DNA of 28,073 nucleotides, taken from NCBI GenBank assembly GCA_041483195.1, contig JBGPFC010000045.1:1-28073 (forward strand), written 5' to 3'. A program made the position numbers. Positions 3,001 through 9,000 of the stretch are shown here, piece after piece (position 1 is the first letter of the stretch; each line of letters starts with the position of its first letter). Origin of the DNA: Candidatus Eiseniibacteriota bacterium (GTDB taxonomy: Bacteria; Eisenbacteria; RBG-16-71-46).

Positions 3001-6000
3001 GATGAAATTCAGGTCTCGCGCCCCGGAAAACAACGGCGTCGAGGCACCCAACACCACCGTCGGCGTTGGATCCAGCTTTCGCGGAACGCTGATGGTTTCG
3101 GGAACGCTGCGTATCGATGGAGAGTTCGAGGGCGACATCCTCAACTGCAATCGGCTCGAGATTGGGGAGCACGGCTTGATGCGCGCGGACATCGAGGTCA
3201 AGGAGGCGCTGATCCTGGGCCGCGTGAATGGAAACGTGCGCGCGCTGGGGACGGTGGAGATGAAGTCGGGAGCGCGCATGGAGGGCGACGTCGCCGCGAT
3301 GAGCGTGGTGATGGAACCCGGCGTGTTCTTCACCGGGCGCTGCACGATGCTCGAGTCGGGCATCGAGAGCGTCGAGCTGGGCACCGACCGCAGCCGCCAG
3401 CGAGAGTACCGAAGCTAGCGCATCTGCCGTGTGATAGTCCTCATAGCATCAATCGCCACATACAAATATTTGTTATCGGTTGTCCGCGTTCGTGCGCGCC
3501 GAGTCGCGCAATGACGCGCGCCACGGGCGCCCGCGATCCCAGACGCTCGACGGCTCAAACCTCAGGTCCGGCAGCCGCTCGAGGGTCGGATCGAACGCCG
3601 CGTACACGATGCGTCTCTGCCCCTCGGCCGCGCCACGGAGTCCGCCGTGATCGAGACGACGATGAATAGACGCGGCCACACCCCGCGCCGCGGGGGCCGT
3701 CGATTCGCGGTGGTGGCGACCCTGATGATCGGGCTGCTCGCGCTCGCGCCGCGCGGTGGGCGCGCGGCGCGCACCGCGGCCGAGCCGAACTGGCCCGACG
3801 GCACCCGGCTGATGGCCTTCGAAAATCTGGAGGGCGTGCTGCTGATCGAGGCGACGCTGCGCGGGCTGGCCGGGCGCGACACCACGGGCCCCGTCGTGCT
3901 CGACACCGGCGCCGGATTCCTCGCCGTCGACGGTGCGCTCGCGGTCACGCTCGGTCTCTCCGACAGCGTGAGCGCGGATGAGGTGGGCATCGCGGCGCGT
4001 GTGCTCCCGCGGCTCACGCTCGGCGCGGCGCAGATGGACCAGGTCGCTCCGGTGCTCACCGTGAACGGTGACATCGTGCGGCGCGTGACCGACCGGCCGG
4101 TGCTGGGTCTGGTGGGCCAGCGACTCTTCGCCGGCGATGCGCTCCAGATCGACTACGCGGCGGGGCGTCTCGCGGTGGTGCCGGTCGCGCCGGCCGGTGC
4201 CGGCGCGGGGCGCGACGAGGGCGCGGATGCGATCGCGGCCTCGCACGCCTCGCTCGAGGAGGTTCTCGAAGCGGACGCCGCCCCCGTGCCATTCCGGCTC
4301 GCGGGCGACGGCAAGATCATCGTCGAGGCACGGGTTTCCGATCCGCGGCCCCCGCGCTACAGCCGCTGGCTCACCCTGATCGTGGACACCGGTGCGACCA
4401 AGTGCGTGCTGTTCGACTGGGCGCTCGCGGAGAATGCGGGACGCGCCCGGGAATGGCGCCAGCTGCGCGGGCTCTCGGCGCCGACGCTGTTCGGCGCGGC
4501 GAGCGCCTCCATCGCGCGCGTTCCCGAGATCGAGCTGCGTGCCGGCCGCGAACGCGTGCGAATGAGCGGACTCGACGTCGCCGTGATCCATAGCGACCTG
4601 GGCGGCGTGCTGTCGCGCGCGACCGGCGAGCCGGTGCACGGGTTGCTGGGCTACTCCTTCCTCCGCCATTACCGTGTGACCATCGACTATCCGCACCGAG
4701 TCATGTGGCTCGAGCGCGCCCTTCGGCCGGCGGACGAGCGTCCCAACGAGTACTCCCACGTCGGCATTCAGATCGAGCGCGATGACCGCGCCGCGCGCGT
4801 GGTGGGCGTCGCGGAGGGGTCGCCGGCCGCGCGCGCCGAGGTCGAGGCCGGGGATGAACTGATCGCGATCGACGGCGCTCCGGCTGCATCGCTCGACATC
4901 GTGACGCTCTCGCGCCGGCTCGAAGGGCCTCCGGGGAGCGACGTGACCCTGATCCTGAGGCGAGGTACGACTGAGCGCACCATCCGGCTCGTCCGACGCC
5001 GCCTCCTCTAGGCGCGATGTGGCGCGCGGCCGGTGGCTGGTGCTCGGCGCCACCGTCCTGTGGGGCACGACCGCCACCCTCGCGCGCTTCGTGTTCCGCG
5101 ACCGCCACGTCCCGGCCCTGGAGGTGGTGGAGCTGCGGCTCGCGATCTCGGTCGCGCTGCTCGGGCCATGGCTCCTCGTTCGCGACCGATCGCTGCTGCG
5201 CGTGCGGCGCGAGGATTGGGTCTATTTCCTCGTGCTCGGGTTGTTCGGAGTCGCCGCGGTTCAGGGCTGCTACTACTACTCCATCTCGAAGCTCGGCGTT
5301 GGCCTCTCGATTCTCATCCAGTACCTCGCCCCATCGCTCATCGTCATGTGGGAGGCGTTCCGCGGGGCACGCGTTTCACGCGTGACCGTGATCGGGGTGG
5401 TGAGCGCGCTGGCGGGAACCGCGCTGCTGGTGGGCAACCTCGATCCGGGATCGCTCCACGCGCGGCCGCTGCACGCGAGTCCGATCGATTGGGCGATCGG
5501 CTTCGGCTCCGCGCTCTCGTTCGCGTTCTACGTGGTGTTCTCGAAGCGCGGCCTCAGGCGCTACGCGCCCGAGACCGTCCTGTTCTACACCTTCGTGATC
5601 GCCGCGGGATTCTGGTGGGTGGCGGCGCCACCGTGGCGGATCGCGGCCGCCGGCTACGGGCCGGACCTGTGGCTGATGTTCCTGGTCCTCGGCGTGTTCT
5701 CGACGCTCGCACCCTTCGCGCTCTTCTATGCCGGCCTGCGTCGCATGCCCGCGAGCCAGGCGGGCATCTTCGCGACCCTGGAGCCGGTCGTGGCTGTGCT
5801 CTCGGCGGCGCTGTTCCTCGGAGAGGGGTTGCGCACGCTCCAGTGGATGGGGGCGCTGCTCGTGCTGATCGCATCGGCGATCGCCTCGCGACAGGCGCCC
5901 GAGGTGGTCGCGGCGCAGGTCGAGCGCGGCTGATCGGCGAGTCTTCAGCTCGCCGCGGCCAGATCCTCGGGCTGTCCGTGCAGGGCGTGCAGCCGATCGC

Positions 6001-9000
6001 GCACTCGTTCGACGCGCGCCGCGCTCACCGTTTCGACCGCGTAGCGCTCGTCCCACGCGAGATTGCCCCGCAGCCACACGCGCAGTTCGGGGAATCGCGC
6101 GAGGAGCATCACACCGGTCCTGCCCTTCAACTCGCGCACCGCGCTCGCCACGCTTTGAGATGGCTTGAGTGCCAGCAACACGTGGGCATGATCGGCTCCC
6201 GCCGCGACATCGATGAGAGCGTAATCACGTTCTTCGCAGGCTTGCGTGATGAGGGTCTGGAACGCGCGCACATGGCGATCCTTGAGCACCGGGCGGCGTC
6301 CGCGCGTGGTCCAGGTGACGAGGTAGTGAAGCTGACTGCGATAGATCGGCTCCCAACGACCCGCCAACGCCTCACTCACCTCGGGAGCCAGTTCGTGGTT
6401 CACGGTCCTTCCTCCTGCGGGGATGATTGAACGCATGTGCAGCTGTGTGCTCTGAAAAACGGGAGCGCAAGCTCCCGGGGGGGACCCGAATACGGCCGTT
6501 CGGATGCGCGGAACCTATCGGAGGGTGCGAATCACTCCTTTCACGATGCCGAGGATGCGAAACTCTGCCGCCTCGTCGATCACGATCGGGGCGTACTTGG
6601 GGTTCGCCGCCACCAACTCAACGTGGCCGCGCCTCGGCTGGTAGTACTTGACCGTGGCTTCCTCCCCGACCAGGCCCACGACGATTTCGCCGGCGGTCGC
6701 GCGCTCCTGCTGGCGCACGATGACGTAGTCGCCCTGGAGAATTCCCGCGCCCTCCATGCTGTCGCCCCGCACCCGCAGCGCGAACATGCCGTGGGTGTCC
6801 CCGAAGACGTCGTTGGGATCGAGGTGGCCTTCGAAAGATTCTTCGGCGAGCACCGGCTGGCCGGCGGCCACGCGACCCAGAATGGGAATGCCCGAGCCCT
6901 GCGCGGTCCGCGCGATGCCCTCGATGCCGCGGGAGATCTTGCCGCTGCGCTTCAGGTGACCGGCCTTCTCCAGCAGGTTGAGGTAATAGCGGACGCCGTT
7001 GGTGGAGGCGATGCCGTAGGCCTTGCCGATCTCACGAATGGTCGGCGGGTAGCCCCGGTCGTTCTTGAAGCGCTGGATGAAGAGCAGAATTTCGCGCGCG
7101 CGATCGTTCAGCATGGATCACGTCCCCCTCGATGAATGGCCGATCCAGGGACCCGGCACGCGTGCACCATAGTGCACACACGTGCAGCGGGTCAAGGGCG
7201 ATTTTTTCGCGCGGCCCGCGGGCTCGAAACGAGCGCCTCCGGCGGCGGTCGCTTCGACGCGCCGAGGACACCATTGGGTACCGCGTGGACACTTCCCGAC
7301 GCGCGGCCGGGAGCGCTCGGGTGCGCACCGCCCGCGCGACGCAACGATCCACCATGCGGTTGCCCGTGTGACGCGAGATCACGGCGCGACTGGTCCGCCG
7401 ATTGCGATGAGGCACGGGCGAGATCGAAAGATCTCGACCACGACAGGCAAGGAGCGGCAGGTCGGGCCCGCGGAGGTTGATCGCAATCGGGGGCCGGTTG
7501 GCCGAAGTGGACTCGCCTCCGCTGCCTTGTCGGTCGGGTAGGGCCGCGCGGTCCGGCGCGTGTGAGGCGCACCGGACCGCGCGTGCTTCAGAATATTCTC
7601 GACGAATCTAGTAGCGGTAGCTGACCTCGGCGCTCACCCGCCGCGGCGGCGAAACGTAGAACTGCGAATCCCCGATGTCGCTCTCGCCGATCGCGTGCCG
7701 GTCGTCCGACAGGTTCCGCCCCGTGATCGATACCGAGGCCTTCGCGAAGTCGCCGTGCACGCCAGCGTCCCACTGGGTGAAAGGCGTGTCGAAGAACGTA
7801 TTCCGGCGATTGAACGCCCGCGCGCCCATCGAGCGCGATGCGGCCCACACCCCGACGCGCATCGGCGCCTCATAGGCCACGCGCGCGTTGAACAGGCCCT
7901 TCGGCGCCAGCTCGAGCCGCTTGCCGCTCACGTTGCGCAGTGCGCCACCGGGCGTCACGAACGTGAACTCCACGAAGCGCGCGTCGTGGTACGCGTACCC
8001 ACCGCTCAGAGTCAGTCCCTGAACCATCGAAGGCGCCAGCGTGAGATCGACCTCCTGGCCCTTGAACCGCTCGCGCCCGGCATTGATGAAGATGGGATTG
8101 CCGCCCGCGTCGAGCGTCGAGACCACCATGTTCTCGAAGTCCATCTGGAACCACGAGAGATTCACGGCGACCTGCCGGTCGAGCCCGCGCAGCTTGAGCC
8201 CGCCTTCGACCGAGTGGGTGCGCTCCGGCTCCAGGATCTTCGCGTTCTCGGCTTCCGTCAGATTCGGCGCGGCCGGTTTGAACGAGCTCTTCCAGTTCGC
8301 GTAGAGGTTCACCGCGTCGGATTCGGCCTGCGGCGGCGCGATCCGCGCGAGCAGCGAGATGTCGCCGGACCACGCCCCCGTCGTCTTCGAGTCGTTCGTA
8401 TACTCGGGCGGGCTTCCGACTTCCTGTCCGAACGCGGAGAGCTTCTCGTCTGCGTTGTCGTAGCGGCCGCCCCCCGCGAGCGTCACGCGCGGCTGCGGAG
8501 TCCACGCATCGTGCACGTAGACGCCGGCGAAGGTGCGCCGGTCGCCGAAGCTGCGGTGGTCGCCGATCGGAATGGTCGCCAGCCCCGGGGTGGCGCTATA
8601 GGTCGAGAGCTTCTGATCGAAGTCGAAGCCGATTCCGGACGCGACCGTGCGGCCCCACGTGACCGCGCCGCCCGCGACCAGTTGATGGTCGCCGGCGAGC
8701 CGCGGGGTCGCGAGCCAGCGCACGTCGCCGAAGATCGTCGTCTCGTACGGCGCGAGCAGCACGCCCTCCGATGGGTAGTCGTCGACGGTCGAGGCGTCCA
8801 CGCCCGGGAAGCTGCGCAATGAGATCTGATTGTCGCGCGTGTAGCTCAGGGTGTGCTCGATGCGCCCGCTGCCGAGCGGCCGCGCGAGGTGCACCACCTC
8901 CGAGAACACGCGGTGCTCGAGGAACGCGCCCCCGACCGCGTAGTTGCGATCGAGATCGAAGCCCGGCACCGGAGCGCCCGCGTCCACCGGCAGCGCCGTT

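What a model noticed while it worked through the whole genome (the two positions that open the first line are those of the whole stretch)
5945..6403. Catalytically dead IS200 TnpA domesticated as a LexA-controlled core gene
g03009, annotated as an IS200/IS605 transposase, is a single-copy core gene that always follows lexA and has its own LexA box. It keeps the HUH metal motif but the catalytic tyrosine is replaced by arginine throughout the family, so it cannot cut and rejoin DNA. It is a domesticated transposase, probably a single-stranded-DNA or hairpin binding protein of the SOS response.
Evidence so far: Beside lexA in 82 of 101 order genomes. One match per genome in 38 of 46 searched. 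In 29 of 29 fetched loci lexA lies upstream on the same strand and 28 of 29 have a TGCAC-N4-GT(T/G)CA box before the gene. Alignment to ISDra2 TnpA (PDB 2xm3, E 1e-10) puts R137 on the tyrosine of the QKYIESQH helix; across 150 homologues that column is R 147, K 2, V 1, Y 0, while the two HUH histidines are kept in 146 and 147.
(Added by a program. Inside this text positions count along the whole contig: contig position 1 is position 1 of the stretch shown here. "Call 12" and the like, gene names such as g00115 and contig names such as C1 are that model's own, and its searches are not shown. The text may have been shortened before it was handed on; [...] marks where a part breaks off. The agent that wrote the report below was given it as the finding of a first reader that could run no searches.)

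Follow-up and report, generated by a model that had tools for sequence, protein, structure and literature searches.

The report
Disarmed transposase relative in DNA-damage response
In one order of uncultured Eisenbacteria, a gene descended from a jumping-gene enzyme has lost its DNA-cutting tyrosine, sits fixed behind the DNA-damage repressor gene lexA with its own repressor site, and in two of three families leads an error-prone polymerase gene cluster, so it looks like an undescribed DNA-binding part of the damage response.

Summary
Confirmed and extended; the scan noted this gene before on other DNA (five notes).

The 152-aa protein has the IS200/IS605 TnpA fold. Arg137 replaces the catalytic Tyr and Leu141 the metal-binding Gln. 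It occurs in 94 of 102 order genomes, follows lexA in 93 of 94, and has its own LexA-type box in 92 of 93. Its tree matches lexA's. No orthologue was found in 104 genomes of other orders.

Added here:
(1) In both sister families it precedes dinB (13 of 13), usually with DUF72 and often DUF6504. Other orders show lexA-dinB without it, so it was inserted into an SOS mutagenesis cassette.
(2) Catalytic decay differs by family: HUH plus invariant His142 kept; HUH replaced; or the catalytic helix gone.
(3) TnpA dimer residues are kept and a homodimer is predicted.
(4) No tyrosine-donor partner gene was found.
(5) Its family ends in an ssrA-like tag.
(6) It branches outside classical IS200 transposases, among REP-type relatives.

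Best reading: an SOS-induced, non-cutting binder of hairpin or ss/ds-junction DNA, possibly a Pol IV helper. Function and expression are untested.

The parts
5945..6403 (-). Tyr-less TnpA_Y1 (HUH-fold) gene, 152 aa, GTG start
6182..6190 (-). HUH motif codons H72-A73-H74 (IS608 H64/H66)
   Evidence: H72 in 79 of 81 and H74 in 81 of 81 own-family genomes
5993..5995 (-). R137, at the position of the catalytic Tyr (ISDra2 Y132, IS608 Y127)
5978..5983 (-). L141 (replaces the metal-ligand Gln) and invariant H142 (candidate third metal ligand, inferred)
   Evidence: H142 in 121 of 121 and 81 of 81; absent in 10 of 10 f2 proteins, which also lack H72
5948..5962 (-). C-terminal LAAAS, resembling the genome's own tmRNA tag; candidate degradation tag (inferred)
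   Evidence: motif in 77 of 81 genome copies and 117 of 120 homologues, against 2 of 1642 background ORFs
6411..6416 (-). Shine-Dalgarno-like AGGAGG
   Evidence: sequence
6428..6441 (.). LexA-type box of the gene (TGCAC-N4-GTTCA on the - strand)
6455..6477 (-). Terminator-like hairpin plus T-tract between lexA and the gene
   Evidence: found in 47 of 63 loci; whole-region fold z 0.40, so not exceptional by energy
6515..7114 (-). lexA, 199 aa
   Evidence: TIGR00498 172 bits, cut-off 111
7163..7186 (.). Two overlapping LexA-type boxes before lexA, overlapping a sigma70-like promoter match (7195-7166)
5019..5933 (+). Convergent EamA transporter gene ending 11 nt from the stop, leaving no room for an IS right end
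   Evidence: convergent in 66 of 81 own-family loci

Best explanation
This is a host gene of one Eisenbacteria order, made from a Y1/HUH transposase-family protein. It was inserted once, directly after lexA, into an older lexA-DUF6504-dinB-DUF72 SOS mutagenesis cassette, and gained its own LexA operator. Proposed working: after DNA damage LexA is cleaved and the gene is transcribed from its own promoter behind the lexA terminator. The protein forms a TnpA-like homodimer (own family and f2) that binds hairpins or ss/ds-DNA junctions at gaps and stalled forks but does not cut them. Arg/Lys sits where the Tyr attacked, and in f2 Arg, Lys or Gln replace the metal histidines, so the old active site most likely just holds a phosphate. 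In the own family an ssrA-like C-terminal tag would let it be removed quickly. Its likeliest job is to mark or protect such DNA for the co-regulated Pol IV module. SHOWN: fold, loss of Tyr and Gln, distribution, synteny, box conservation, vertical descent, purifying selection in close pairs. MODELLED: dimer. INFERRED: LexA binding, induction, DNA binding, degradation tag, Pol IV link. Odds by step: domesticated SOS gene about 0.9; non-cutting nucleic-acid binder about 0.6; works with DinB about 0.3.
For: Present in 94 of 102 genomes. Of the 8 lacking it, 7 also lack lexA and the eighth has lexA at a contig end. Of 23 well-supported splits, 20 are shared with the lexA tree and 0 conflict, over 63 loci. 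dN/dS is at most 0.22 in 9 of the 12 closest pairs. The same box stands before lexA in 64 of 66 loci with DNA, and in the own genome before DUF6504-dinB-DUF72, an Rv2578c-like radical SAM gene and DUF5131. dinB and the SplB-type radical SAM gene are SOS genes per PMC8565304 passages. In G013 a glyoxalase-family gene lies between lexA and this gene, which keeps its box. dinB follows on the same strand in 13 of 13 f2/f3 loci. lexA-dinB without this gene is seen in 10 of 29 lexA loci of other orders. The IS608 dimer residues P73, V77, I113 and T115 (PMC3479197 section 16) map to the conserved P81, V85, V123 and T125. The homodimer model scores 0.81 against a best control of 0.02; the mark was reached by 20 of 30 solved pairs and 1 of 23 single chains; runs agree in at least 98% of contacts, pLDDT at least 83; the pass may be likeness to solved TnpA dimers. 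The basic motifs GR[RK]P and RExKG are kept, the second as RExRG in part of f2 and in f3. IS608 TnpA binds fork-like DNA, co-localises with stalled forks and contacts DnaN (PMC5027513 passages).
Against: There is no biochemical or expression data. In the largest family the gene is unlinked from dinB (0 of 81 loci), and Pol IV cassettes exist without it in other orders, so it is not a required subunit and the adjacency may only record the insertion site. The own family keeps H72, H74, H142 and H44 almost invariant, more than a purely electrostatic binder needs. f3 lacks the dimer strand and the Pro, so the dimer cannot be universal. dN/dS over all usable pairs is 0.41 (lexA 0.42), and 0.45 for the f3 pair. 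No box was found near recA in the own genome, and two f3 genomes show no exact box before lexA.
Confidence: 0.55

Rival explanations
1. In the own family it is still a nuclease with changed chemistry. H72/H74/H142 form a three-His metal site with water as nucleophile and R137 stabilising the transition state, or H142 is the nucleophile as in MobM.
For: H142 co-occurs with HUH: 81 of 81 in f1, and none of 10 in f2 where H72 is lost. E. coli TnpA-REP uses a third His from helix D as a metal ligand (PMC3479197 passage). MobM cleaves through a His (PMC5863519 passages).
Against: H142 is at Tyr+5, not at the nucleophile position, and the Gln ligand is lost. f2 and f3 keep the gene, the box and the locus without the metal site, so cutting is not the shared function.
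Confidence: 0.12
2. It is a regulator of its own locus. The protein binds the conserved hairpin between lexA and the gene (as RNA or ssDNA), or binds LexA, and tunes the SOS switch or read-through into dinB.
For: It is never separated from lexA (93 of 94), although it was separated from dinB. The stem GGAG..CTCC is kept in 42 of 51 f1 and 6 of 9 f2 loci. TnpA proteins bind hairpins.
Against: The stem varies with paired changes and carries a T-tract like an ordinary terminator; only 1 of 3 f3 loci has it. No LexA interaction was tested.
Confidence: 0.12
3. It is an anti-transposon guard. The dead subunit poisons or outcompetes IS200/IS605 or REP-type transposases when damage makes ssDNA abundant.
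For: The dimer interface is kept. TnpA active sites are built in trans. ISDra2 is induced by irradiation. Tyr-bearing TnpAs are rare in the order.
Against: They are also rare in sister orders that lack the gene: PF01797 matches in 12 of 104 genomes. No TnpB domain in 5 of 5 order genomes. A WT/Y127F heterodimer still performs strand transfer. f3 lacks the dimer strand.
Confidence: 0.08
4. It is half of a split enzyme: it supplies HUH and another gene supplies the Tyr in trans, as in the fused two-domain relatives.
For: Five two-domain relatives have a HUH-less, Tyr-bearing N-domain and a HUH-bearing C-domain that lacks Tyr in four of the five and lacks the Gln in all five. H64A/Y127F heterodimers cleave.
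Against: Profiles built from those relatives find no second Y1 gene in the own genome or in 10 of 10 genomes searched, two of them single-contig; best other hits E 0.17 and 0.34. No fused form longer than 266 aa scored (weak evidence). f2 and f3 lack HUH as well.
Confidence: 0.03
5. It is a decaying transposase remnant kept only because it carries a promoter for downstream genes.
For: Stepwise loss of catalytic parts across families; f3 is truncated and evolves faster.
Against: The frame is intact in nearly all copies. In f1 no same-strand gene of the cassette follows, yet dozens of columns are invariant. The f3 truncation point is the same in 3 genomes and 5 database proteins, the four being 55-99% identical to the query.
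Confidence: 0.03

Closest known systems
IS200/IS605 TnpA (IS608 2vhg/2a6m, ISDra2 2xm3/2xqc; subclass 1.1 of Quentin et al., 10.1101/279083)
   Same: Fold (Foldseek E 1e-9; VIA Z 15.0 and 14.0, rmsd 3.0 and 2.6 A over 111 and 110 residues), HUH motif in f1, dimer residues
   Different: No Tyr, no Gln, no IS ends, no tnpB, single copy, fixed locus, inherited with lexA
TnpA_Y1 subclass 1.2 (Y---Q--HH) and REP-associated tyrosine transposases (E. coli TnpA-REP, 4er8)
   Same: The nearest Tyr-bearing hits often carry Y---Q--HH; low copy number, not IS-like; a third His on helix D
   Different: These keep the Tyr, and the loci seen are flanked by inverted hairpins. This gene has none, scores 30.5 against a cut-off of 80 on NF047646, and has a LexA box. 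Quentin et al. dropped proteins lacking HuH or Y as non-functional.
ISCR rcr transposase under LexA control (PMC13393415)
   Same: An HUH-family transposase gene with a LexA site
   Different: rcr belongs to a mobile IS91-like element; this is an immobile, Tyr-less host gene
imuA-imuB-dnaE2 and related SOS mutagenesis cassettes
   Same: LexA-controlled cassette around an error-prone polymerase; use of dead enzymes as accessory subunits (recalled)
   Different: Here the polymerase is a DinB with its N-terminal and SxDE motifs in place, with DUF6504 and DUF72, and the dead protein comes from a transposase
TldR, nuclease-dead TnpB domesticated as a regulator (recalled, not looked up)
   Same: A dead IS200/IS605-derived protein kept as a host gene
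   Different: TldR comes from TnpB and is RNA-guided; this comes from the HUH transposase and no guide RNA is implied

Membership tests
IS200/IS605 TnpA | Y1_Tnp fold and profile match | tested here: met
IS200/IS605 TnpA | HUH motif | tested here: met
   H72 in 79 of 81 and H74 in 81 of 81 in the own family; not met in f2 or f3
IS200/IS605 TnpA | Catalytic Tyr with Y---Q on helix D | tested here: not met
   R137/L141; no Tyr at that column in 121 homologues or 94 genomes
IS200/IS605 TnpA | Subterminal hairpins at both ends, tnpB partner, mobility | tested here: not met
   11 nt to the convergent eamA; no flanking repeats; no PF07282 in 5 of 5 genomes; fixed locus and tree congruent with lexA
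IS200/IS605 TnpA | Obligate dimer through strands beta2/beta5 and P73/V77/I113/T115 | tested here: met
   Residues kept; model 0.81 against control 0.02, possibly by likeness; strand absent in f3
RAYT / TnpA-REP (class 2) and subclass 1.2 | Y---NP or Y---Q--HH motif | tested here: not met
RAYT / TnpA-REP (class 2) and subclass 1.2 | Flanking REP hairpins and a dispersed REP family | tested here: not met
   None around the gene. The most abundant 20-mers printed for the own genome (60 of 203) belong to one IS-end repeat; GTAG/GTGG-foot hairpins reach at most 7 copies.
RAYT / TnpA-REP (class 2) and subclass 1.2 | Descent from this group | tested here: inconclusive
   Outside the classical clade (98/97), inside a group with Y---Q--HH proteins (94/92); unrooted tree, outgroup drawn only from the query's own hits
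LexA (SOS) regulon member | Operator matching the one before lexA, at a conserved position | tested here: met
   92 of 93 loci within one mismatch; same box before lexA, dinB and the radical SAM gene
LexA (SOS) regulon member | LexA binds the site and damage induces transcription | not testable with these tools
   Needs EMSA or RNA data; no RNA run was listed
His-nucleophile HUH enzymes (MobM type) | His at the nucleophile position forming a phosphoramidate | tested here: inconclusive
   The invariant His is at Tyr+5; no model coordinates were available; chemistry untested

The most novel reading that the evidence does not exclude
A dead HUH transposase has become an accessory factor of translesion synthesis. 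It uses TnpA's fork- and hairpin-binding ability to bring or gate a DinB-DUF6504-DUF72 module at damaged forks, is switched on by LexA, and in the own family is removed through an ssrA-like tag. I found no transposase-derived subunit of a bacterial SOS mutagenesis system in my searches.
Probability: 0.25. Interest if true: 0.85.

Novelty: new variant of a known kind. Interest (0 to 1): 0.67.

Why it matters
The bacterial Y1 transposase domestications described in the papers I read (RAYT/REP) keep their catalysis, and the family survey discarded Tyr-less copies as dead. This gene shows such a copy fixed for the whole life of an order, wired into the SOS regulon, with three natural stages of catalytic decay that let binding be separated from cutting. 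It also names a testable, apparently undescribed lexA-DUF6504-dinB-DUF72 cassette and a candidate LexA motif for Eisenbacteria. Many genes annotated 'IS200 transposase' may likewise be host genes. Limits: uncultured hosts, one order, function untested.

Tried and rejected
- Phylum-wide presence, claimed in two earlier scan notes: not found. Six of 104 genomes outside the order matched weakly. Five matches are Tyr-bearing IS-like TnpAs, one is cut at a contig end, and none has lexA in the fetched flanks. 29 lexA loci from 32 chosen genomes of other orders held no Y1 gene. A narrower use of the phylum name may explain the difference.
- Extra copies as signs of mobility: rejected. The three copies in G033 each come with lexA and eamA, G099 has one frameshifted copy, and the extra hits in G020 and G057 are unrelated Tyr-bearing proteins.
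- Another Tyr as nucleophile: Y21, Y27 and Y121 align to core-strand positions; Tyr after helix D occurs in only 6 of 94 tails.
- Tyr-donor partner: none.
- Fusions longer than 266 aa: none scored, weak evidence.
- RNA runs: none was listed, which is no evidence either way.
- ESM Atlas: only Y1_Tnp clusters.
- recA box: none within one mismatch in the own genome; a one-mismatch site in 2 of 5 recA loci.
- mixed strands and was ignored.
- Depletion of active IS200 in the order: uninformative; collapsed multi-copy elements can be missing from these assemblies.
- Literature searches found no description of this gene, of an Eisenbacteria LexA motif, or of DUF6504. The library is open-licence only and no supplements were read.

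
Full report
OBSERVATION. Window 5945-6403 (-) encodes an intact 152-aa protein matching PF01797 (77.3 bits) and NF033573 (74.8, cut-off 55) but not the RAYT model (30.5, cut-off 80). The AlphaFold2 model (pLDDT 79.6) matches IS200/IS605 TnpA structures best: Foldseek E 1e-9 to ISDra2; VIA Z 15.0, rmsd 3.0 A over 111 residues to 2ec2; Z 10.4 to TnpA-REP. The gap-free alignment to ISDra2 puts R137 on Y132 and L141 on Q136, and entry 2xo6 is titled the Y132F mutant. IS608 offsets give H64/H66 for H72/H74 and, one residue past the aligned stretch, Y127 for R137 (catalytic role per PMC3597680). 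The Gln is an essential metal ligand (10.1101/279083). So both the nucleophile and one metal ligand are gone. Named homologues are from Candidatus Eisenbacteria.

DISTRIBUTION. 94 of 102 order genomes match: own family f1 81 of 89, f2 10 of 10, f3 3 of 3; 90 of the 94 have a single match. Of the 8 without a match, 7 also lack lexA and the eighth has lexA at a contig end, so the gaps look like assembly gaps. lexA lies directly upstream on the same strand in 93 of 94; the other copy is at a contig end. Outside the order, 6 of 104 genomes match weakly: five Tyr-bearing IS-like proteins and one fragment. 29 lexA loci from 32 chosen genomes of other orders hold no such gene. Over 63 loci with both genes (frameshifted, partial and N-containing copies dropped), 20 of 23 well-supported splits are shared with the lexA tree, none conflict, and patristic Spearman is 0.88 (0.68 within f1). 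Kin are not independent, so this shows vertical descent, not co-adaptation. dN/dS is at most 0.22 in 9 of the 12 closest pairs; the others are 0.38, 0.45 (f3) and 1.81 (a cross-family pair). Medians are 0.33 against 0.26 for lexA (25 pairs each with dS<0.5) and 0.41 against 0.42 overall. f1, f2 and f3 form one clade (99/93). One of the 10 f2 loci (G010, L038) comes from an unpublished genome; all f2 counts include it.

REGULATION. A TGCAC-N4-GTTCA box lies at 6428-6441, 38 nt before the start. The pattern occurs exactly 10 times in the 4.17-Mb genome against 2 for the reversed control. It is exact in 82, one mismatch off in 10 and absent in 1 (G099) of 93 loci; chance is 0.08% and 1.3% per 330 nt. 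The same box precedes lexA in 64 of 66 loci with DNA. The seven top matrix sites in the own genome include lexA, this gene, DUF6504-dinB-DUF72, an Rv2578c-like radical SAM gene (below that model's cut-off) and DUF5131; the other two have no identified repair gene. recA has no box here. A terminator-like hairpin separates lexA from the gene in 47 of 63 loci, which explains the need for a second operator. In G013 a glyoxalase-family gene lies between the two and the box stays with this gene. LexA binding itself is inferred.

CONTEXT. In all 13 f2 and f3 loci dinB follows on the same strand 118-693 nt downstream. DUF72 follows dinB in 12 of 13 (one contig ends), and a DUF6504-like ORF is present in 7 of 13. 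In f1 dinB is not adjacent (0 of 81) and eamA is convergent in 66 of 81. There DUF6504-dinB sits elsewhere with its own box, exact in 7 and one mismatch off in 3 of 10 loci fetched, usually followed by DUF72. In other orders lexA has dinB within 1.5 kb in 10 of 29 loci and a DUF6504-like ORF in 11 of 29; G204 and G158 show the full lexA-DUF6504-dinB-DUF72 run without a Y1 gene. The simplest history is one insertion after lexA in the ancestor of the order, then a split in f1 after which both parts kept a box. Retention of the gene and box in f1, with no cassette gene behind it, shows the gene is not just a promoter carrier.

ANATOMY. Catalytic decay differs by family. In f1 (81 genomes), H72 is kept in 79, H74 in 81, H142 in 81 and H44 in 81, and position 137 is R 79, K 1, V 1. 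In f2 (10), position 72 is Q 7, R 3; position 74 is R 6, H 3, K 1; position 137 is R 8, K 2; H142 is absent. In f3 (3 genomes plus 5 database proteins) the chain ends within four residues of W117 and has lost the last strand and helix D. Basic residues replacing both the Tyr and the metal histidines suggest a phosphate-binding site without chemistry (inference). H142 appearing only with HUH suggests a three-His metal site in f1, as TnpA-REP uses a His from helix D; this keeps a nuclease rival alive. The IS608 dimer determinants P73, V77, I113 and T115 map to P81, V85, V123 and T125, which are invariant or nearly so. A homodimer model scores 0.81 against a best control of 0.02. That mark was met by 20 of 30 solved pairs and 1 of 23 single chains; runs share at least 98% of contacts, pLDDT is at least 83, and the interface is residues 19-27, 80-89 and 119-130. 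Like complexes are solved, so the pass may show likeness only. f1 proteins end in [LFWY]-A-x-A-[SAGC] in 77 of 81 genomes and 117 of 120 homologues, against 2 of 1642 crudely filtered background ORFs, and the genome's tmRNA tag ends LALAA. A ClpXP-type degradation tag is my inference from recalled knowledge; f2 and f3 lack the motif.

ORIGIN. In an unrooted 75-row tree the classical IS200-like proteins form their own branch (98/97), while this family groups with Y---Q--HH proteins (94/92). That motif marks the low-copy, non-IS subclass 1.2 of Quentin et al.. The locus of one such relative is flanked by inverted hairpin pairs. Two-domain relatives, with the Tyr in the first domain and HUH in the second, sit between hairpin arrays in 3 of 3 loci. 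These raised the idea that this gene is half of a split enzyme, but no partner gene was found in 10 of 10 genomes. The outgroup came only from the query's own hits, so the origin is probable, not shown.

MECHANISM. Best reading (0.55): an SOS-induced, non-cutting binder of hairpin or ss/ds-junction DNA. IS608 TnpA binds fork-like DNA, localises to stalled forks and contacts the sliding clamp (PMC5027513), which gives a ready trait to co-opt. Action with the Pol IV module is the likeliest specific role (about 0.3), but it is not a required subunit, since other orders lack it and f1 has unlinked it. Rivals: changed-chemistry nuclease in f1 (0.12), regulator of the lexA locus (0.12), anti-transposon guard (0.08), split enzyme (0.03), remnant (0.03).

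COMPARISON AND NOVELTY. It works like a TnpA DNA-binding dimer but fails membership of IS200/IS605 transposases and of RAYTs on the Tyr and on flanking ends. LexA control of an HUH transposase is known for ISCR elements, which are mobile. Searches found no paper on this gene, on an Eisenbacteria LexA motif, or on DUF6504. What I saw of each paper: 10.1101/279083, abstract, passages, section 6 and the first third of section 14; PMC3479197, passages and sections 16-17; PMC3597680, PMC5027513, PMC13393415, PMC5863519 and PMC8565304, passages only. No supplements were read; the Quentin supplements could list members of this family. TldR, the dead state of ImuA/ImuB and ClpXP tag rules are recalled. 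The scan noted this gene five times on other DNA and the two-domain relatives twice. Verdict: real, a new variant of a known kind, interest 0.67.

Noticed in passing
P0149, P0151, P0175, P0208, P0242; loci L119-L121: Two-domain single-chain TnpA_Y1 proteins with the Tyr in the N-domain and HUH in the C-domain (one composite active site). In three Pyrinomonadaceae loci they lie between inverted arrays of REP-like hairpins. Earlier scan notes also describe them.
   Followed up: partly
P0169, P0204: Y1 domains lacking both HUH and Tyr, fused to a C-terminal segment that looks by eye like a sigma70 region-4 helix-turn-helix; a possible second domestication as a regulator.
   Followed up: no
L107:821-3125 (G000 C4); L166, L168, L083, L085: A LexA-boxed DUF6504-dinB-DUF72 operon, attached to lexA in several other orders; DUF6504 had no hit in the paper library.
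   Followed up: partly
L109:593-1966 (G000 C25) and L108:798-1727 (G000 C28): DUF5131 and an Rv2578c-like radical SAM gene carry strong LexA-type boxes.
   Followed up: partly
G000 C2:102783 and C2:66181: Two more strong boxes, one before an ORF that looks by eye like mraZ (cell-division cluster), one with no clear target.
   Followed up: no
G000, 16 sites, nearly all at contig ends: A multi-copy insertion element with a CTAG junction and identical ends (IS5-like by recall) is collapsed in the assembly.
   Followed up: partly
window 17800-19017 (-): A Fic-domain gene in a low-GC stretch (58% against about 70%), probably acquired, right after a ubiA-flavoprotein-kinase-ubiD run.
   Followed up: no
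window 64-384: An imperfect tandem repeat of about 57 nt at the contig start, upstream of gidB-parA-parB, visible as a repetitive ORF.
   Followed up: no
L046, L047, L016 (G033): Three lexA-gene-eamA copies in one assembly, two frameshifted; probably mixed strains or long-read errors.
   Followed up: partly
P0227: A Tyr-bearing relative with His instead of Gln at Tyr+4 and the same TRGRRPVL motif; a possible close active relative, context unknown.
   Followed up: no
L086, L088, L089, L093, L095-L097, L101: The box before lexA shifts to TGAAC-N4-GTTCA or CGAAC-N4-GTTCG in other orders, suggesting drift of the LexA motif within the class.
   Followed up: no
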